32,000 nt of DNA from Candidatus Saccharimonadota bacterium (GTDB taxonomy: Bacteria; Patescibacteriota; Saccharimonadia; Saccharimonadales; Saccharimonadaceae), in contig CP011211.1 in NCBI GenBank assembly GCA_001029695.1, positions 510,001 to 542,000 on the forward strand, in the 5' to 3' direction. The notes under the pieces were generated by a model that saw nothing but the letters and a program-made list of their open reading frames with translations, was not told where the DNA came from and did no database searches. The position numbers were made by a program, and so were the translations under genes. Numbering within the stretch: the first letter of the stretch is position 1; each line of letters begins with the position of its first letter. Shown one piece after another: positions 9,631 to 29,560 of this stretch.

Positions 9631-10485
9631 TCATACCACTTTTGAAGGATGCTCTACAATAAAAGATTGCTTCGTAAATCGAATTCTCACACCAAATGCA
9701 GCATCTACTCGACTTGCTGGACGAGCAACTTTGATCTCGTGGAGTAGTTTTTTTCGCTGAGGCAGCGTCAAAGAGACACCAGCAGACCGCATAACCACCG
9801 CTCGAAGTAGTTCAAGCGCTGCCCGCTCCGTACTATGAATAAAGAAATATCGTGAATACTCATCGTTTCCACCGAGATGATCGGCTACCGTCTGGTCGAT
9901 AGCGCCACGAAGCCGTACCTGCTCCTCCCAATACTGCAGAAGAAGTGCATGCGTCTCGTCGTCAAGGCGAGACAAGATCCGACGTATGCGATTACGGAGA
10001 TACTTGTCACTCTGATTCGTGCTATCTTCGCGCCAACTAAGATTATACATTTGCGCATACTCAATCAGCTCTTGTTTACGTAGCCCCACAAGTGGACGTT
10101 CAATCGATTCGTCGCCAAATACCGCAAGCCCACGCCATCCCGTACCGCGCAGTATATTAATAGCAATAGTCTCTATTACATCATCAGCATGGTGTGCGGT
10201 AACGAGCGTCCCTTTCTCTTTATTTGTGATATCTTTCAAAAAAGCATACCGTCGTCGCCTCGCCTCATCTTCGCTGGCGTTTATGCCAAGCTCCTCCCGC
10301 TTCACCTCAAAAGGCACTCCATACTGCGAAGCAAGATGTTTAACGAACATCGCGTCCTCAGCAGAGTCATCTCGAATTCCATGATCAAAATGAGCAACGA
10401 CAACAGAATCGCCTTGCTGTATCAGCTTATGCAACAAGACGACCGAATCAACTCCACCACTTACGGCGATGATGTATTTTGTCAC
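9631..10485 (-). CDS. tilS: tRNA(Ile)-lysidine synthase TilS
   Basis: The PP-loop is VSGGVDSVVLLH, followed by VAHFDHGIRDDS and TAHHADDVIET. The start codon is GTG (10485-10483). Confidence 0.85.
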   Translation of the reverse strand: MTKYIIAVSGGVDSVVLLHKLIQQGDSVVVAHFDHGIRDDSAEDAMFVKHLASQYGVPFEVKREELGINASEDEARRRRYAFLKDITNKEKGTLVTAHHADDVIETIAINILRGTGWRGLAVFGDESIERPLVGLRKQELIEYAQMYNLSWREDSTNQSDKYLRNRIRRILSRLDDETHALLLQYWEEQVRLRGAIDQTVADHLGGNDEYSRYFFIHSTERAALELLRAVVMRSAGVSLTLPQRKKLLHEIKVARPASRVDAAFGVRIRFTKQSFIVEHPSKVV

Positions 10486-14636: not shown

Positions 14637-16328
14637 CTATTTTCCACCAAATGTAAATGCGTTGAGCTGGACACCTTTAGGAACCGACAATTCGACCGTC
14701 TGCCCCTTTGTAAATGCATCATACGAAATAATATGATATAGTCTTGCGCCAGCTACCGACACGGCCGAATCTTTTACGTCTGCGCCGGCGCTCTCAGTCA
14801 CGGGACTATTGTTGAGCGCAACCGCAATTCGACCTGAGGTATCATTACCTGTCACGATATACATGTCCTTTGCCGCTATATTCATACGAAGCGTCGCCCC
14901 TTCGCCAGCTACTATACCTTCGCTTGTTACGTTCCATTCACCTGATAGCGTCCAATCGTTGCCCGAGAGTGTATTCGCTGCAGTGAATGTTGCCTGCCCC
15001 TGCTTCAGTCCTGGCGCACCTTTATAATTACTTGCACGCTTCGTGCCAAGATAGGTTTCTGGACTCTGCCCCTCTATTATGGGAGCGTCGTTCGTCACTC
15101 CATCCGTAAACGCATCTGGAACTGTAGCCCCAGCATCTTTAAGAAGTGTACGAATAGCTTGCTCAGTCTCTTTGTATTCACCTTCACCAAAATGCGCACG
15201 ACGAACATTACCATCCTTGTCGATCAAATAACTTGCTGGCCAGTACTGGTTTTTGTACGCTGCCCATGTCCTAAAATCGTTATCTAGAGCAATTGGATAG
15301 GTGAGGCCTGCTTTTTTGGTGGCATTTTTTACGTTGGTAGCATTTTTCTCAAATGCAAATTCCGGCGCATGAATACCAATTATCTCGAGTCCACTGCCTT
15401 TGTATGCCTGATACCAATCTTTTAGATACGGCTGCGTGCGAATACAGTTGATGCAACTATACGTCCAAAAGTCCACCAACACCACCTTACCTTTCAGGCT
15501 TTTGAGCGTTTTAGGTTCGCTATTTATCCACTCGCCAAGTCCGGTAAACTCGGGTGCTTTGTATGCCTTGACGTTTAGCACACCGCTCGCAGCCTTTCGA
15601 TCGCTCGCCGGAATAAGCTTGGATGAAAGCGCATCAAAATCAAATGGCGTCTTTTCCGCAACAAATGTCTGAAATTGCTTGTCCATCCCCGTGATTACGA
15701 GAAGCCCAACAACAATAAACAACACCGCCACAATCCGCTGGAATACACCCCGAGGATTACTCGCCCATGACACCTTACGAACAAACTTCTGTCCGATAAA
15801 TCCAACAAGTAGCAGTACGAGACTCAGACCTACGACATATGCCACCATATAGATAATTGCTTCGCCAAAGTTCACAGGCAGTACAGTCGCGAGGATATAC
15901 GCATACACAGGACTACAACTACTAAACACAGGTCCGAGCGCAGCTCCAGTGATAATCGCCCCGATCACCGCACCCTTGCCCGAACTCTTTCCGAGCAGTT
16001 GCTGGGATTTCGCCTGCAAATTAAATGTAATAATGAGTCGCTCATACACCCATGGAAACAGCATCAGTAGCCCGATACCAACGATAATCCCGCCAGATAC
16101 ATACGTAATCACCTCTGGTGATATATCGATAAATAAGGTCGTCGCTTTGAGAAGAAGCGTAAACACCATCAGTGACACTGCAAGACTAGCGATAATAATA
16201 AATGGCCGTCGCTTATCATGGACGTCTCCACTCATTGAGCCACCAACTATTACAGGGAGAAGTGCGAACACACATGGCGCAAATACTGTCAAAATCCCTG
16301 CCAAAAATGCCCCAATGAGTAGTAACAT
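14637..16328 (-). CDS. dipZ: DipZ-like protein: CcdA/DsbD-type thiol-disulfide transporter fused to a thioredoxin-like domain and a C-terminal beta domain
   Basis: The membrane domain carries VFAPCVFALLP and FSSCSPVY (the two CcdA cysteines). The periplasmic redoxin domain has WTYSCINCIRT (CxxC). A C-terminal domain of roughly 150 aa follows, as in actinobacterial DipZ. Confidence 0.8.
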   Translation of the reverse strand: MLLLIGAFLAGILTVFAPCVFALLPVIVGGSMSGDVHDKRRPFIIIASLAVSLMVFTLLLKATTLFIDISPEVITYVSGGIIVGIGLLMLFPWVYERLIITFNLQAKSQQLLGKSSGKGAVIGAIITGAALGPVFSSCSPVYAYILATVLPVNFGEAIIYMVAYVVGLSLVLLLVGFIGQKFVRKVSWASNPRGVFQRIVAVLFIVVGLLVITGMDKQFQTFVAEKTPFDFDALSSKLIPASDRKAASGVLNVKAYKAPEFTGLGEWINSEPKTLKSLKGKVVLVDFWTYSCINCIRTQPYLKDWYQAYKGSGLEIIGIHAPEFAFEKNATNVKNATKKAGLTYPIALDNDFRTWAAYKNQYWPASYLIDKDGNVRRAHFGEGEYKETEQAIRTLLKDAGATVPDAFTDGVTNDAPIIEGQSPETYLGTKRASNYKGAPGLKQGQATFTAANTLSGNDWTLSGEWNVTSEGIVAGEGATLRMNIAAKDMYIVTGNDTSGRIAVALNNSPVTESAGADVKDSAVSVAGARLYHIISYDAFTKGQTVELSVPKGVQLNAFTFGGK

Positions 16329-16416: not shown

Positions 16417-17046
16417 TTAGCTCTTCGGCATCAACACACTCTGAACTACGTGTGTCACACCATTGCTCGAAATTACATCGGTAGTTTCAATAGCGGATTT
16501 ATTACCCATTGCATCTTGAATGTACACTTTGCCACCATCTAGTACTGGCATGAGCATCTCACCTTGAACTGTGGTGAGTGATTCACCCTTCTGTGCCATG
16601 ACTTTGAGCGCTGCACTCGTATAGGTACCCGGGACAACATGATACGTCAATATATTCTTGAGAGTACCAACATTTTCTTCTTTTTGAAGCGAAGCGACTG
16701 TCTCGGCTGGTAACTTAGAAAAGGCATCGTTGTTTGGTGCAAACACCGTGAATGGACCCTCGCTCTTGAGCGTATCGACTAGTCCAGCCTTTTGAACAAG
16801 GCTTACTGTCGTCGTCACATTTTTTGCATTCAGTGCGTTGTCGACGATGTCTTTATCTTTTACCATAAGCGCACCACCTACCATTGTACCTTCTTTATTC
16901 TCAGCCATCGACTGCGCTGATGAATCATTCTTCGTGTCAGTATCTGTCATATTCATATTGCCAGCAGCGTAGCCGCCCACACCGCCAATAGCAAGGCCGA
17001 GTACAAGGGCAATAGCGACGCCAGTCATTGTATGTTTAGTTTCCAT
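16417..17046 (-). CDS. Fasciclin (FAS1) domain protein with an N-terminal membrane anchor
   Basis: FTVFAPNNDAFSKLP and ILTYHVVPG are FAS1 H1 and YH motifs. The N-terminal hydrophobic segment is GVAIALVLGLAIGGVGG. Confidence 0.85.
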   Translation of the reverse strand: METKHTMTGVAIALVLGLAIGGVGGYAAGNMNMTDTDTKNDSSAQSMAENKEGTMVGGALMVKDKDIVDNALNAKNVTTTVSLVQKAGLVDTLKSEGPFTVFAPNNDAFSKLPAETVASLQKEENVGTLKNILTYHVVPGTYTSAALKVMAQKGESLTTVQGEMLMPVLDGGKVYIQDAMGNKSAIETTDVISSNGVTHVVQSVLMPKS

Positions 17047-17663: not shown

Positions 17664-19565
17664 TTAGCTTGCGACGGTCGTTAGTGAACGTACCACTAAA
17701 TAGTCAAACTCGGCGCCAGCGGTCCAAGTACCGATACCAAATGCTTCGCCAGTTTTTCCTGTCGTCCAACTACCGAGTGTCTGCCAGCTATCACATCCCT
17801 CTGGCATCCAATATGCAGTCATCGTCTGACCAACTACTTTCACCGCTAATTTCACCCATTCGTTCGTGAGATTTCGTCCACCACCAATTGTGCGGATAAA
17901 GACTTCGTCAAAATCATCGCGTGCGCGAACGACCCAGTTGTTCTGGCTAAATCGAACAAGCTGAATATGTACCGCAGATCCAAAGTACGGGTCAGGGGAG
18001 TTGCCTTTTACTATAAGTGACGCTTCCTGCCCATCATGAGTTGCATCGGTGATTCTCACACGTGTCTCTAGCCAATAACTCCCAGGGAGGGTCACATTCT
18101 TTCGTGCCGCGCGAGTATCTTGCCCTGCCGATCCCCCGTCAAATGCAAACCGAATCGTTGATCCTGTTGCCTCAGCTTGCGTTCGATCACCTACCTGATT
18201 CCAGTCTGCAGCACTGAGACTGCCCGACGCCCCAGTAAACTGATCGTCAAGTATCGCCGTCGCACCCGTGTCGACAGTTTGAAAATTAATAGCGCCTGGA
18301 GTGTTCGCCCATAGCCCAGCAAACGCAGATAAGCTTACCGTACTTGACGCAAATGCCCCTTGGTTACGCTGTCCAGCATTGACGACAATCTTGATGTGCG
18401 AACTAAAAAATAATGGATCCTCTGTAAAGAATCTATAGTAGGTTGCCGTCAACCCACCATTGATACTATTGCCTGCTCGTCCTGCTGGATAGCCGCCAAT
18501 CGGAACGTTATACCAACCTCCGTTAAATGCATCTTCCGTACCAGATGATTGCCACGAAGGATACAATTCTCCATCAATATAAATCTCTATATTACCCTCG
18601 AGCACCCCTATATCTTCATCAGCTCCAACCACCGAAAGCCAGAGCGATTCCAGCTGCCCGCTTCCCGCCGTGTCGACAACCGTCAGCTGGTCATATGGTG
18701 CTGCAGCTGGCCGCTCGATGCTATGCATCTTATAGCTCAACTGTTGTGATCCAAGAAGTGAGAAGTCGCCAACAACACTGTAATCAGCCGACCCAAATAC
18801 TATCGCGTCATTCGATGAAGTGTTCTCGACTTCCACTCGCAGATACTTTTGAAATGGCATATGGAGATAGCGGTATGCAGATGATTCACCATTGCCACGC
18901 TTTGTCCGACCAATTCTCCTCGTCGAGTACTCGCCAGCTAGAAGTGCATACGCAAAAAAATCATTTATAGATAACTGAACAACCGGCGTAGTCTGGTCAT
19001 CAATGAAAATACGGACTATCCCACCGTTCTCTCCGATACTTTGCGCTCCAGCATCGCCATCTGATGTCGCCATCCATATATGCTTCAAAACACCTGCTTT
19101 TCCCCATAGCTCAGCAAGTACGACTTTCTTTGCACCGCTTGGATTCATTGAGGCAGTGTGCGCCTTGCCAAGTTCGGTTGGATACGAGTATATCCTCTCT
19201 CCTGTAAGACGAAGTGGAAAGCCCGACAAGCTCGTCGCCCCAGCTCCCGCCGGTGGAGCCGACTGCAGGGCAGTGTCAGCCTTATCTAAACTCGCCTGCA
19301 CGCTCGCCGATAAATCCGACTTTGCAATTCCATCTGCTGGCTTTTGATACTTTGCAGCAAGGTCTATCGACAAGTTTTGAATCTTCGCCTGTGGCAGTAT
19401 ATTATCCGCAACATGTATCGCAGTTACTGCATTTGCTGCAATCTGAGACGTCCCGACCACCCCTGGCTTTAGATGCCCCTGCCCGTCATGCTCAACCAAT
19501 AAATACTCATTTAAAATGTCACCCCAGTTACCAGAATCGCCACCAGGTTGCGGTAATCGCGCCAT
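17664..19565 (-). CDS. Chimeric DUF2961/GH172-family glycoside hydrolase with a tail-fibre-like N-terminus and a ConA-like/LamG C-terminal domain
   Basis: The core motifs GVLKHIWMATS, VRIFIDDQTTPVVQLSINDFF and YRYLHMPFQKYLRVEVENTS match the DUF2961 pattern as I recall it. The N-terminus reads MARLPQPGGDSGNWGDILNEYL...IAANAVTAIHVADNIL. The C-terminal 200 aa are beta-rich (WLETRVRI...WVKLAVKV...FDYLVVR). Start chosen at ATG 19565, with 19598 and 19643 also possible. Confidence 0.75.
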   Translation of the reverse strand: MARLPQPGGDSGNWGDILNEYLLVEHDGQGHLKPGVVGTSQIAANAVTAIHVADNILPQAKIQNLSIDLAAKYQKPADGIAKSDLSASVQASLDKADTALQSAPPAGAGATSLSGFPLRLTGERIYSYPTELGKAHTASMNPSGAKKVVLAELWGKAGVLKHIWMATSDGDAGAQSIGENGGIVRIFIDDQTTPVVQLSINDFFAYALLAGEYSTRRIGRTKRGNGESSAYRYLHMPFQKYLRVEVENTSSNDAIVFGSADYSVVGDFSLLGSQQLSYKMHSIERPAAAPYDQLTVVDTAGSGQLESLWLSVVGADEDIGVLEGNIEIYIDGELYPSWQSSGTEDAFNGGWYNVPIGGYPAGRAGNSINGGLTATYYRFFTEDPLFFSSHIKIVVNAGQRNQGAFASSTVSLSAFAGLWANTPGAINFQTVDTGATAILDDQFTGASGSLSAADWNQVGDRTQAEATGSTIRFAFDGGSAGQDTRAARKNVTLPGSYWLETRVRITDATHDGQEASLIVKGNSPDPYFGSAVHIQLVRFSQNNWVVRARDDFDEVFIRTIGGGRNLTNEWVKLAVKVVGQTMTAYWMPEGCDSWQTLGSWTTGKTGEAFGIGTWTAGAEFDYLVVRSLTTVAS

Positions 19566-19683
19566 GTCTTTTTCCCACTTATGTTTATTCTTTACCATTG
19601 TCAGACTTTTACCCACCAGTGTCAAATAAAAATAAAGATACACCTCTTGTATAGCTCCACTTCAACTACTATTATTAAATGAC

Positions 19684-21055: not shown

Positions 21056-21132
21056 TGGTAGCAGCGACAGGAATTGAACCTGTGACCTCAAGCTTATGAG
21101 TCTTGCGCTCTAACCAACTGAGCTACGCTGCC
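21056..21132 (-). tRNA. tRNA-Met (anticodon CAT), elongator type, CCA encoded
   Basis: The minus-strand sequence is GGCAGCGTAGCTCAGTTGGTTAGAGCGCAAGACTCATAAGCTTGAGGTCACAGGTTCAATTCCTGTCGCTGCTACCA. It folds as a cloverleaf, and its D and T arms closely resemble E. coli elongator tRNA-Met as I recall it. Confidence 0.85.
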
Positions 21133-28844: not shown

Positions 28845-28922
28845 TGGTTGCGGGGGTAGGATTCGAACCTACGACCTTGTGGTTATGAGCCACACGAGCT
28901 GACCAGACTGCTCCACCCCGCG
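28845..28922 (-). tRNA. Initiator tRNA-fMet (anticodon CAT), CCA encoded
   Basis: The minus-strand sequence is CGCGGGGTGGAGCAGTCTGGTCAGCTCGTGTGGCTCATAACCACAAGGTCGTAGGTTCGAATCCTACCCCCGCAACCA. It has the C1xA72 mismatch typical of bacterial initiators. It is near-identical to E. coli tRNA-fMet in the acceptor and T arms, as I recall that sequence. Confidence 0.9.
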
Positions 28923-29484: not shown

Positions 29485-29560
29485 GGGGGCGTAGCTCATC
29501 GGTTAGAGCAGGCGGCTCATAACCACTTGGTAGTTGGTTCGATTCCAACCGCCCCCACCA
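29485..29560 (+). tRNA. tRNA with CAT anticodon, probably tRNA-Ile2 (lysidine-modified, TilS substrate), CCA encoded
   Basis: The sequence is GGGGGCGTAGCTCATCGGTTAGAGCAGGCGGCTCATAACCACTTGGTAGTTGGTTCGATTCCAACCGCCCCCACCA. The stretch AGAGCAGGCGxCTCATAA..CTTGGT and a G27-U43 pair resemble E. coli ileX as I recall it. The tRNA call is firm, but the Ile2-versus-Met identity is tentative. Confidence 0.8.

What the first reader, a model, noticed from the sequence alone, without database searches (positions are those of the whole stretch)
17664..19565. Chimeric tail-fibre-like / GH172 (DUF2961) / ConA-like protein, a candidate host-glycan-targeting factor
What the sequence shows is a 633-aa protein with no detectable signal peptide. 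Its first roughly 130 aa (MARLPQPGGDSGNWGDILNEYL..., then IAANAVTAIHVADNILPQAKIQNLSIDLAAKYQKPADGIAKSDLSASVQASLDKADTAL) resemble N-termini of phage tail-fibre or minor-tail proteins. They also resemble related actinobacterial surface proteins. The middle carries DUF2961 motifs (HIWM, RIFIDD...PVVQLSINDFF, HMPFQKYLRVEVEN). The last roughly 200 aa look like a ConA-like/LamG beta-sandwich. From established knowledge, DUF2961 is glycoside hydrolase family GH172. Its characterised members act on fructofuranosyl or D-arabinofuranosyl linkages, including arabinan of mycolata cell walls. My inference is that an ultrasmall episymbiont living on Actinobacteria could use such a fusion as a host-envelope binding or degrading device, or that it is a domesticated phage receptor-binding protein. 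It converges on marR with only 3 bp between the stops.
Basis: partly seen in the sequence, partly recalled or inferred. Interest (0 to 1): 0.7.

Follow-up and report, generated by a model that had tools for sequence, protein, structure and literature searches.

The report
Phage-fibre-headed arabinan-trimming enzyme of Saccharibacteria
An ultrasmall parasitic bacterium (Saccharibacteria) encodes an enzyme predicted to clip D-arabinose sugars from the cell walls of mycobacteria-like hosts. Its front end is the same attachment piece that phages use on their tail fibres, which hints that these bacteria reuse phage hardware to attack their hosts.

Summary
Window 17664-19565 (- strand) encodes a 633-aa protein with three parts.

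(1) Residues 1-113 are a phage tail-fibre-type N-terminus: a 33-aa cap, MARLPQPGGDxGNWGxILNxYL, plus a short stalk.
(2) Residues 114-405 are a GH172/DUF2961 double jelly-roll. Both catalytic glutamates (E323, E344) are invariant in 46 of 46 homologues.
(3) Residues 406-633 are a confident ConA-like beta-sandwich.

The cap is a real phage module. It starts tailspike-like proteins of Streptomyces phages and of 27 IMG/VR viral contigs, where it lies next to tape-measure genes.

The gene itself is not in a prophage. It sits in a housekeeping block (DinB, TilS-like, FtsH, MurJ, LepA) that is conserved across Saccharibacteria. The same cap heads many Saccharibacteria paralogues that carry other envelope-active enzymes: SGNH esterases, deacetylases and pectate-lyase-like beta-helices.

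The host-arabinan idea is not new. A Saccharibacterial GH172 (MycGH172 of Ca. Mycosynbacter amalyticus) is a published trimeric exo-alpha-D-arabinofuranosidase. What appears undescribed is the phage-fibre adaptor and its modular family. No export signal was found, and localisation is untested.

Verdict: a real feature and a new variant of a known kind, of moderate to high interest.

The parts
17664..19565 (-). Whole gene: 633 codons plus the stop codon (17664-17666). The start is the ATG at 19565.
   Evidence: Homologues start at MARLP. Public gene calls of 659 and 644 aa use upstream starts that the family does not share.
19467..19565 (-). N-cap, aa 1-33 (MARLPQPGGDSGNWGDILNEYLLVEHDGQGHLK). 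This is a strictly N-terminal adaptor module of phage tail-fibre/tailspike type.
   Evidence: It is the most conserved region of the family, at 66% mean pairwise identity. It sits at residue 1 of about 80 proteins with other payloads. It also sits at residue 1 of Streptomyces phage GiJojo gp34 and BRock gp186 and of proteins on 27 IMG/VR contigs. A 40-aa query finds 3209 representative clusters.
19227..19466 (-). Stalk and linker, aa 34-113. It holds short 'AVTxxxIAD'-type repeats, one fibre repeat unit, and a Gly/Ala/Pro linker.
   Evidence: This is the least conserved region (38% identity) and its length varies from 32 to 285 residues among orthologues. AF2 confidence is low, with short helices. 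It is similar to Gordonia phage Mariokart gp36, a minor tail protein.
19254..19349 (-). Fibre repeat unit, aa 73-104 (YQKPADGIAKSDLSASVQASLDKADTALQSAP).
   Evidence: It is 72% identical to an internal repeat of Curtobacterium phage Commonplace gp39, a minor tail protein that carries several copies. Multiple copies occur in P0052, P0068, P0072 and P0079. P0052 also carries Pfam Phage_fiber_rpt.
18351..19226 (-). GH172 (DUF2961) double jelly-roll catalytic body, aa 114-405.
   Evidence: Pfam PF11175 at E=1.5e-32. Orthologues are pre-annotated GH172_1st + GH172_dom + GH172_2nd. Fold hits to 7v1v, 8ah3, 4kq7 and 8ic8 have E of 1e-15 to 5e-17. pLDDT is mostly above 90.
18597..18599 (-). Codon for E323, the predicted general acid/base (equivalent to E270 of alphaFFase1).
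   Evidence: Mapped from the alignment using the residue numbering of PMC8605356. Invariant in 46 of 46 sequences. Coordinates checked.
18534..18536 (-). Codon for E344, the predicted catalytic nucleophile (equivalent to E291 of alphaFFase1). It is followed by D345 (= D292).
   Evidence: E344, D345 and W351 are each invariant in 46 of 46 sequences.
17667..18350 (-). C-terminal ConA-like (L-type-lectin / GH43-C-domain-like) beta-sandwich, aa 406-633.
   Evidence: AF2 pLDDT 91.5 and pTM 0.88. Foldseek matches GH43 beta-xylosidase C-terminal domains, ERGIC-53, VIP36, legume-lectin-like domains and GH16. There is no Pfam hit. The domain was found only in this GH172 subfamily.
19597..19625 (-). Promoter-like site, TTGACA-17-GACAAT. 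It lies inside the upstream extension used by the 659-aa and 644-aa gene calls.
   Evidence: This is weak evidence: the number of such sites in the region equals the shuffle expectation.

Best explanation
The gene encodes a homotrimeric, tailspike-like, retaining exo-alpha-D-arabinofuranosidase that a Saccharibacterium directs at D-arabinan-type glycans in the envelope of its actinobacterial host.

Shown here: the GH172 double jelly-roll carries the full catalytic dyad, E344 as nucleophile and E323 as acid/base.

Inferred from the family: in most characterised GH172 enzymes the working unit is a trimer with active sites at the protomer interfaces. The enzyme removes terminal alpha-D-Araf residues. 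It would probably work best on chain ends, or on fragments opened up by an endo-arabinanase encoded elsewhere in the genome.

Inferred from the fold: the C-terminal ConA-like sandwich either binds the glycan like a lectin, or completes and gates the active site as the C-domain of GH43 beta-xylosidases does.

Shown here: the N-terminal 33-residue cap and short variable stalk are a phage tail-fibre adaptor.

Inferred: the cap holds the trimer on a stalk and docks it to a conserved partner structure of the Saccharibacteria cell. This would be one head among a set of interchangeable enzyme heads (esterases, deacetylases, beta-helix lyases). Export would have to be non-classical.
For: Enzyme identity.
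- Pfam, PDB and fold matches to GH172.
- E323, E344, D345 and W351 are invariant in 46 of 46 sequences. They map onto residues validated by mutagenesis in alphaFFase1 (PMC8605356).
- Characterised GH172 enzymes, including MycGH172 from the Saccharibacterium M. amalyticus, are exo-alpha-D-arabinofuranosidases on AG and LAM. MycGH172 is a trimer of 67.4-kDa subunits (PMC10115798). This protein is 67.5 kDa.
- A basal trimer with an interface active site is described.

Phage-fibre N-terminus.
-.
- Module-bearing viral genes lie directly after the tape-measure gene (L049) or three genes after it (L054).
- Proteins sharing the module carry Phage_fiber_rpt, BppL_N, collagen and DUF5907 repeats.

Modular arsenal.
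- The same cap heads SGNH esterases, polysaccharide deacetylases, pectate-lyase-like beta-helices and SASA. All of these act on extracellular polymers.
- Tandem arrays occur in L011, L009 and L062.
- The cap is the most conserved region while the stalk varies in length, as expected for a docking piece.

Mycolata link.
- The GH172+ConA body is 48% identical to a protein in a mycobacteriophage-like prophage of Mycolicibacterium.
- That protein's different N-terminus matches gp44 from the tail-to-lysis region of cluster-J mycobacteriophages.
Against: - No Sec, Tat, lipoprotein or sortase signal is present.
- Al-Jourani et al. predict that MycGH172 is not secreted and favour a cytoplasmic role.
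- The GH172 ExoMA1 does not attack intact LAM, only oligosaccharides released by endo-enzymes. No GH183 gene is present in this window.
- No docking partner was identified.
- The N-terminal 120 residues are modelled with low confidence, and only a monomer could be modelled.
- W267 of alphaFFase1, which lines the -1 and +1 subsites, is a glycine here (G320). The specificity may therefore differ.
- The host of this groundwater-type Saccharibacterium is unknown.
- MycGH172 was not recovered as a member of this exact subfamily.
Confidence: 0.5

Rival explanations
1. The protein is a cytoplasmic scavenging enzyme. Oligo-arabinofuranosides are released outside the cell by a surface endo-arabinanase and then imported. 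This trimeric GH172 cleaves them to D-arabinose inside the cell. On this view the phage-like N-terminus is only an inherited trimerisation or stalk element with no docking role.
For: There is no export signal. This is the model preferred in the literature for MycGH172 (PMC10115798). The exo-acting GH172 ExoMA1 acts on oligosaccharides rather than on intact polymers.
Against: A phage-fibre adaptor and a lectin-like domain have no obvious use in the cytoplasm. The same cap heads deacetylases, SGNH esterases and pectate-lyase-like beta-helices, which are typical extracellular or phage-tail enzymes. The cap is the most conserved part of the protein, which argues for a conserved interaction. A close homologue of the catalytic body is phage-encoded.
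Confidence: 0.28
2. The protein is a structural receptor-binding protein of a prophage, or of a phage-derived particle (a tailocin-like element), in the Saccharibacterium. It would be released by lysis.
For: The N-terminal cap and the repeat unit are genuine phage tail-fibre elements. A lysis-released protein would not need a signal peptide.
Against: No phage genes lie within about 15 kb on either side. The gene keeps its place in the DinB, TilS-like, FtsH, MurJ, LepA housekeeping block in three other lineages that are only 53-72% identical. The paralogues are dispersed and also lack tail genes nearby. The GH172+ConA body is absent from IMG/VR.
Confidence: 0.06
3. The protein is a GH172 enzyme with a different substrate or target. 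Candidates include alpha-D-fructofuranosides, other furanosides, D-Araf on non-mycolata glycans such as pilin or O-antigen glycans, or the bacterium's own envelope.
For: GH172 also contains alpha-D-fructofuranosidases / DFA I synthases (PMC8605356). The W267 equivalent is missing (G320), and Y187 is F here. The host is unknown and the source habitat is groundwater or sediment. GH172 enzymes cleave D-Araf from Pseudomonas pilin glycans.
Against: The best sequence matches are the Bacteroidota arabinan-PUL type (8ah3/DgGH172c) and 4kq7, not alphaFFase1. The nearest non-Saccharibacteria homologue lies in a Mycolicibacterium prophage. Y187F in alphaFFase1 keeps 90% of its Araf-ase activity but only 31% of its fructoside activity.
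Confidence: 0.14

Closest known systems
MycGH172 (GII36_05205) of Candidatus Mycosynbacter amalyticus (Al-Jourani et al. 2023, PMC10115798)
   Same: It is a Saccharibacterial GH172. It is a trimer whose subunit mass (67.4 kDa theoretical) is nearly equal to this protein's 67.5 kDa. It has no predicted signal peptide and is a demonstrated exo-alpha-D-arabinofuranosidase on AG, LAM and pNP-alpha-D-Araf.
   Different: Its sequence could not be retrieved here. It did not appear in two deep protein searches or in the motif-based genome scan, so whether it shares the three-domain architecture is unproven. The paper does not mention a phage-fibre N-terminus or a ConA-like C-domain.
DgGH172c (PDB 8ah3) and BACUNI_00161 (PDB 4kq7), single-domain GH172 enzymes of Bacteroidota
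   Same: They share the double jelly-roll catalytic body and the Glu/Glu dyad, and they are the best sequence and fold matches.
   Different: They are about 375 aa long, with a C-terminal helix that builds hexamers. They have no N-terminal fibre module and no ConA-like domain. W at position -3 from the acid/base is present in them but is G320 here.
Enzymatic phage tailspikes and tail fibres, for example Streptomyces phage GiJojo gp34 and IMG/VR proteins L044/L049/L053
   Same: They have the same N-terminal cap at residue 1. GiJojo gp34 also has the same 'YxKPGxGIPxxDL' unit. The cap is followed by a polysaccharide-active head. In the IMG/VR contigs L049 and L054 the gene lies beside the tape-measure gene.
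   Different: Their heads are pectate-lyase-type beta-helices or collagen-like, not GH172. They are encoded in phage genomes, whereas this gene is chromosomal and syntenic among Saccharibacteria.
P0047, a DUF2961 protein in a mycobacteriophage-like prophage of Mycolicibacterium sp. S2-37
   Same: The GH172+ConA-like body is 48% identical over aa 96-630.
   Different: It has a different N-terminus, homologous to gp44 of cluster-J mycobacteriophages. It is phage-borne.
Mycobacteriophage Douge central fibre gp20 (PDB 8zdp/8zdq) and Gordonia phage GMA6 GH183
   Same: Both are phage tail proteins aimed at arabinan-containing mycobacterial glycans. Douge gp20 is trimeric and binds LAM/AM fragments, and it is a Foldseek hit at E=3.7e-9. 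The GMA6 protein is a phage-borne endo-D-arabinanase.
   Different: The similarity to gp20 is only at domain level (RMSD above 80 A), and the C-domain alone does not retrieve it. gp20 has no reported catalytic activity. GMA6 uses a different glycoside hydrolase family.

Membership tests
GH172 (DUF2961) glycoside hydrolases | Sequence match to the family profile above the curated threshold | tested here: met
   PF11175 scores 113.5 bits against a cut-off of 27, at E=1.5e-32. Orthologues are pre-annotated GH172_1st/GH172_dom/GH172_2nd.
GH172 (DUF2961) glycoside hydrolases | Double jelly-roll fold | tested here: met
   The AF2 model has pLDDT above 90 over most of aa 121-405. Foldseek matches 7v1v, 8ah3, 4kq7 and 8ic8 at E of 5e-17 to 6e-15, and also DJR capsid proteins.
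GH172 (DUF2961) glycoside hydrolases | Catalytic nucleophile Glu and acid/base Glu (E291/E270 of alphaFFase1) | tested here: met
   These are E344 and E323 by alignment (with numbering). Both are invariant in 46 of 46 family members.
GH172 (DUF2961) glycoside hydrolases | Remaining -1 subsite residues (D292, W298, Y187, W267 of alphaFFase1) | tested here: inconclusive
   D345 and W351 are invariant. Y187 corresponds to F257, which is Y in 34 and F in 12 of 46 sequences. W267 corresponds to G320 and is not conserved. Dg71 also lacks this Trp and is active.
GH172 (DUF2961) glycoside hydrolases | Trimer-based oligomer with the active site at the protomer interface | not testable with these tools
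   Only monomer prediction was available. Indirect support comes from MycGH172 being a trimer and from the basal trimer seen in most solved GH172 structures.
GH172 (DUF2961) glycoside hydrolases | Retaining alpha-D-furanosidase activity | not testable with these tools
   This needs an enzyme assay.
Phage tail fibre / tailspike (receptor-binding protein) | N-terminal adaptor homologous to those of phage fibres | tested here: met
   BRock gp186 and GiJojo gp34 match at blastp E of 8e-15 and 5e-14. The cap sits at the N-terminus of proteins on 27 IMG/VR contigs. In L049 and L054 these genes lie next to tape-measure genes.
Phage tail fibre / tailspike (receptor-binding protein) | Fibre repeats in the shaft | tested here: met
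   One 'KPxxGIxKSDL..VQxSLDKADTALQ' unit is shared with Curtobacterium and Gordonia phage minor tail proteins. No Pfam repeat family is hit in this protein itself.
Phage tail fibre / tailspike (receptor-binding protein) | Encoded within a phage or prophage tail gene module | tested here: not met
   The neighbours are housekeeping and regulatory genes. The locus is syntenic in L003, L005 and L066.
Phage tail fibre / tailspike (receptor-binding protein) | Assembly onto a virion or baseplate | not testable with these tools
   No partner was identified. A limited tblastn of phage neighbour proteins against about 200 kb of Saccharibacteria loci found only the cap itself.
ConA-like lectin/glucanase superfamily | Beta-sandwich (jelly-roll) fold of ConA/L-type-lectin type | tested here: met
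   pLDDT is 91.5. Foldseek gives TM 0.55-0.62 to GH43 C-domains, ERGIC-53, VIP36 and GH16.
ConA-like lectin/glucanase superfamily | Sequence membership in a curated family (LamG, Laminin_G_3, GH43_C2 and similar) | tested here: not met
   There is no Pfam or NCBIfam hit over aa 406-633.
ConA-like lectin/glucanase superfamily | Carbohydrate binding | not testable with these tools
   This needs a glycan array or ITC.
Classically secreted or surface-anchored protein | Sec or Tat signal, lipobox, TM anchor or sortase motif | tested here: not met
   The maximum KD(19) hydrophobicity is 1.16. There is no RRxFL motif, lipobox or LPXTG. These are heuristics only; SignalP was not available.

The most novel reading that the evidence does not exclude
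Saccharibacteria have domesticated the plug-in principle of phage tail fibres. A highly conserved 33-residue N-terminal cap mounts a set of interchangeable trimeric envelope-degrading heads on a cell-surface organelle, such as a pilus or the 'lance' seen by cryo-ET, and that organelle is used to recognise and breach the host. The heads include GH172 arabinofuranosidase, SGNH esterases, deacetylases and beta-helix lyases. Export would be by a route that needs no Sec signal. The repertoire of heads would then be a genomic read-out of host range.
Probability: 0.27. Interest if true: 0.85.

Novelty: new variant of a known kind. Interest (0 to 1): 0.6.

Why it matters
How ultrasmall episymbiotic bacteria recognise and open the envelope of their hosts is an open question. 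Published work points to type IV pili and to arabinogalactan-degrading enzymes, but it treats the Saccharibacterial GH172 as a cytoplasmic enzyme.

This protein starts with a genuine phage tail-fibre adaptor. The same adaptor heads dozens of other envelope-active enzymes in Saccharibacteria. Together these facts give a concrete, testable alternative: a phage-style modular arsenal.

It also supplies practical handles. The cap sequence is a search key for candidate host-interaction genes. [quoted passage not shown]

Tried and rejected
- PHROG and NCBIfam scans of the whole protein gave only weak tail hits or none. The phage link had to be shown by tblastn and by IMG/VR scans instead.
- Prophage origin was rejected on gene context and synteny.
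- A search for the GH172+ConA body in IMG/VR found none. INPHARED held only three unannotated faecal 'Bacteriophage sp.' records with distant GH172-like ORFs.
- A search for the ConA-like domain outside this family returned only fragments of the same family.
- Three attempts to recover MycGH172 or M. amalyticus as a family member (single-sequence search, profile search, GTDB genome scan) did not surface it. The 'same architecture' idea therefore rests only on subunit mass.
- The Douge gp20 fold hit could not be assigned to a specific domain, and the global superposition is poor. I treat it as domain-level resemblance only.
- A search for a docking partner ran phage ORFs from the N-cap contigs against the Saccharibacteria loci held. 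It found only the cap itself, plus one whole-protein match between L040 and P0053.
- Taxonomy of the nearest N-cap proteins was uninformative because the entries are mostly unnamed metagenomic sequences.
- The promoter-like site upstream is no better than chance.
- The MarR and PadR neighbours are not conserved next to the orthologues, so I do not propose a regulatory link.
Full report
OBSERVATION. The window holds an ORF on the minus strand from 17664 to 19643. Public records annotate three starts: 659, 644 and 633 aa. In nearly all of about 95 homologues, query residue 1 aligns with subject residue 1 and the proteins begin MARLPQPGGD. All quoted motifs are present. The stop lies three bases from the stop of a convergent MarR-family gene. 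Simple heuristics find no TM segment, Tat motif, lipobox or sortase motif.

ANATOMY: THE CATALYTIC BODY. The middle of the protein is an unambiguous GH172. Pfam DUF2961 matches at E=1.5e-32. PDB sequence hits are 4kq7, 8ah3 (DgGH172c), 7v1v (alphaFFase1) and 8ic8 (ExoMA1). The same four structures are the top fold matches to a confident AF2 model. Newer Pfam models split this region in the orthologues into GH172_1st, GH172_dom and GH172_2nd, meaning the double jelly-roll.

I mapped the HMMER alignment onto the residue numbers validated by mutagenesis in alphaFFase1 (PMC8605356). Acid/base E270 corresponds to E323, nucleophile E291 to E344, D292 to D345 and W298 to W351. All four are invariant in 46 of 46 family members. 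Y187 corresponds to F257, and the Y187F mutant kept 90% of its arabinofuranosidase activity. W267 corresponds to G320 and is not conserved. There is a precedent for this in the active D. gadei enzyme Dg71, which also lacks that Trp.

ANATOMY: THE C-TERMINAL DOMAIN. Residues 406-633 have no Pfam hit but fold with pLDDT 91.5 into a ConA-like beta-sandwich. The best matches are the C-terminal accessory domain of GH43 beta-xylosidases and the L-type lectins ERGIC-53 and VIP36. GH172-ConA/LamG fusions as a class were noted by Krupovic et al. (PMC8812541). Here the domain was found only in this subfamily.

ANATOMY: THE N-TERMINAL REGION. This is the most informative part. It has three elements: a 33-residue cap (MARLPQPGGDSGNWGDILNEYLLVEHDGQGHLK), short 'AVTxxxIAD' repeats, and one 'YQKPADGIAKSDLSASVQASLDKADTALQ' unit.

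The cap plus unit match Streptomyces phage BRock gp186 and GiJojo gp34 (tblastn 6e-11 and 9e-11; blastp 8e-15 and 5e-14). In GiJojo gp34 the cap is followed by a 'GAKGDGTTNDSAAIQAAI' pectate-lyase-type beta-helix, the classic tailspike head. The repeat unit recurs several times inside the minor tail protein gp39 of Curtobacterium phage Commonplace (72% identity over 32 residues), and the 'AVT/IADG' repeats recur in Gordonia phage Mariokart gp36.

A scan of IMG/VR found the cap at the exact N-terminus of proteins on 27 viral contigs with GC from 34% to 70%. Most have beta-helix or collagen-like bodies. In L049 the gene directly follows the tape-measure gene. In L054 it lies three genes after it. 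The cap is therefore a genuine and widespread phage tail-fibre/tailspike N-terminal module.

A FAMILY OF CAP-BEARING PROTEINS. The first homology search already showed that about 45 proteins share only the first ~100 residues and carry other enzymes. These include polysaccharide deacetylase, SGNH/GDSL esterase, pectate-lyase-like beta-helix, SASA and an FGE-sulfatase-like domain. Some also carry Phage_fiber_rpt, BppL_N or DUF5907 repeats.

A 40-residue cap query against 1.84 billion representative proteins returned 3209 clusters at E<=0.001, with the match starting at residue 1 in almost all of the top 150. A Pfam census of 67 of them gave SGNH (10), pectate-lyase-like (7), beta-helix (4), collagen (5), DUF5907 (11), BppL_N (7), LamG (2), Spherulin4, GHL15 and SASA. 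That is the vocabulary of phage receptor-binding proteins.

Several named members of this set are Saccharibacteria or unclassified-bacterium MAG proteins. In Saccharibacteria loci, cap genes occur singly or in tandem: three in L011, two in L009 and two in L062. None has phage structural genes nearby. Within the GH172 orthologues the cap is the most conserved region (66% mean pairwise identity). The stalk is the least conserved (38%) and varies from 32 to 285 residues. The GH172 body and the C-domain are intermediate, at 61% and 56%.

GENOMIC CONTEXT. The window is a Saccharibacteria chromosome segment. The protein clusters at 90% identity or more with AKM80439.1 (UW38_C0001G0591, on a contig of about 1.04 Mb) and with several RIFCS and groundwater MAG proteins.

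Read in the direction of the gene, the window is GH172, MarR, a fasciclin protein, a DsbD-thioredoxin fusion, a hydrolase, DinB, Hydrolase_4, a PP-loop ATPase, FtsH, MurJ, LepA, Gmk, TatC and HrcA. The same DinB / PP-loop / FtsH / MurJ / LepA block flanks the orthologues in L005 (53% identity) and L066 (55%). The upstream Pyr_redox and 240-aa genes are shared with L003 (72%). The gene is therefore an old, vertically inherited chromosomal resident and not a prophage gene.

THE MYCOBACTERIAL PROPHAGE HOMOLOGUE. The only non-Patescibacteria member of the full GH172+ConA body is P0047 of Mycolicibacterium sp. S2-37, which is 48% identical over aa 96-630. It lies in a region with a DNA polymerase exonuclease subunit, RNR, Ku, HNH and many small ORFs. 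That region matches 685 phage records, 675 of them Mycobacterium phages.

Its first ~110 residues are unrelated to the Saccharibacteria cap. Instead they match gp44 of cluster-J mycobacteriophages at E=1e-18. In phage Klein that gene sits between the minor tail genes and lysin A. The same enzymatic body is thus combined with two different phage-type N-termini, the recombination pattern typical of receptor-binding proteins. This also ties the body to a mycolata target.

WHAT IS ALREADY KNOWN. GH172 was founded on alphaFFase1 (PMC8605356). D-arabinan-specific members were described in 2023 (PMC10115798, PMC10509167) and again in a 2026 preprint on quaternary structures.

Al-Jourani et al. characterised MycGH172 (GII36_05205) from the Gordonia parasite Ca. 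Mycosynbacter amalyticus. It is active on pNP-alpha-D-Araf, AG and, more weakly, LAM. It is a trimer with a theoretical mass of 202,115 Da. It is 'predicted to not be secreted'. The authors propose a model of cytoplasmic cleavage of imported oligosaccharides, with local wall remodelling as an alternative. Rose et al. (PMC11880426) found that G. amarae mutants in pks13, pptT and aftB resist the parasite. A 2026 preprint notes an unspecified 'tail fibre-like protein' co-localised with a new CPR pilus operon.

I found no description of the cap, of its phage homology, or of the cap-bearing enzyme family. Whether MycGH172 has this exact architecture is unresolved. The subunit mass fits (67.4 versus 67.5 kDa), but the protein was not retrieved by any of my searches.

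MECHANISM. Three things are shown here: a GH172 body with an intact catalytic dyad, a ConA-like C-domain, and a phage-fibre N-terminus.

From the family I infer a retaining exo-alpha-D-arabinofuranosidase built on a trimer. The basal GH172 unit is a trimer with interface active sites, and phage fibres are trimers, so the two symmetries fit.

From the cap's distribution and conservation I infer that it docks the trimer onto a conserved partner, and that the protein acts on the host envelope as one head of a modular arsenal.

Several points weigh against this. There is no export signal. The literature favours a cytoplasmic model. Exo-GH172 enzymes may need an endo-arabinanase to open the polymer, and none is present in this window. 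I put about 0.8 on the enzyme identity and about 0.5 on the complete host-directed model. The rivals are a cytoplasmic scavenging enzyme (0.28), a different substrate or target (0.14), and a prophage or particle component (0.06).

VERDICT. Its interpretation is partly supported. The enzyme and its likely substrate class are known biology. The phage tail-fibre adaptor on a chromosomal Saccharibacteria enzyme, the large family of cap-bearing paralogues, and the sharing of the catalytic body with a mycobacterial prophage appear to be new and are testable. I rate it a new variant of a known kind, with interest 0.6.

Noticed in passing
window 21056-21132 (-), 28845-28922 (-), 29485-29560 (+); 9634-10485 (-): There are three tRNA genes with a CAT anticodon within 9 kb. 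The same window holds a PP-loop (TilS-like, PF01171) ATPase. One of the three may be a tRNA-Ile2 that is lysidinylated rather than a tRNA-Met.
   Followed up: no
window 14640-16328 (-) and 16420-17046 (-): A DsbD-type membrane domain is fused to AhpC/TSA-redoxin and Thioredoxin_10 domains. It is followed by a fasciclin-domain protein with an N-terminal hydrophobic segment. This looks like an extracytoplasmic redox and adhesion pair lying just downstream of the GH172 gene. It is absent from the orthologous loci L005 and L066.
   Followed up: partly
window 19565-19643 (-): Public gene calls for this gene disagree on the start: 659 aa from a GTG, 644 aa from an ATG, and 633 aa. The family alignment supports 633 aa, so the longer calls add a spurious leader of 11 or 26 residues.
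   Followed up: yes
L010 8012-9722 (NC_groundwater MAG JACQGD010000020.1): The orthologue is split. The cap ORF stops after 68 codons, and the annotated protein P0015 (560 aa) starts at query residue 80. This is either a pseudogene or an assembly error.
   Followed up: no
L011 3395, 5685, 7998; L009 4104, 8001; L062 8286, 10001: These loci hold tandem arrays of cap-bearing genes. In L011 two paralogues of about 740 aa lie directly upstream of the GH172 gene. In L062 an SGNH esterase and a deacetylase sit side by side.
   Followed up: partly
L062 7302-8102 and 11856-14534: The L062 pair of cap genes is flanked by a Replic_Relax protein and an 892-aa TrwB/VirD4-like coupling ATPase (DUF87, TrwB_AAD_bind). 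This may be a mobile element or a link to type IV secretion.
   Followed up: no
L040 8001-9323 (IMGVR_UViG_3300012354_000009): This viral-contig protein has the cap, and its body (aa 170-432) is 32% identical to the body of the Saccharibacterial deacetylase-type paralogue P0053. It is a whole-protein link between a virus and a Saccharibacteria gene.
   Followed up: no
L007 10001-11980 (Mycolicibacterium sp. S2-37, NZ_JAFEVR010000004.1): A GH172+ConA protein is encoded inside a mycobacteriophage-like prophage. It lies at the junction of two convergent gene blocks, next to RNR, rather than in a recognisable tail module. Its role there is unknown; it could be a virion enzyme or a lysogeny-expressed factor.
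   Followed up: partly
phage records MT835583.1 17078-17728, MT838830.1, MT836379.1: Three unannotated 'Bacteriophage sp.' contigs from human faeces encode distant GH172-like sequences, at 23-31% identity and E of 1e-10 to 5e-7.
   Followed up: no
L001 5791-6738 (Streptomyces phage BRock gp186): The annotated CDS overlaps a tRNA-Lys gene, and the cap motif starts 70 codons into it. The deposited start codon is probably too far upstream. GiJojo gp34 likewise starts 15 codons before its MVRLP.
   Followed up: partly
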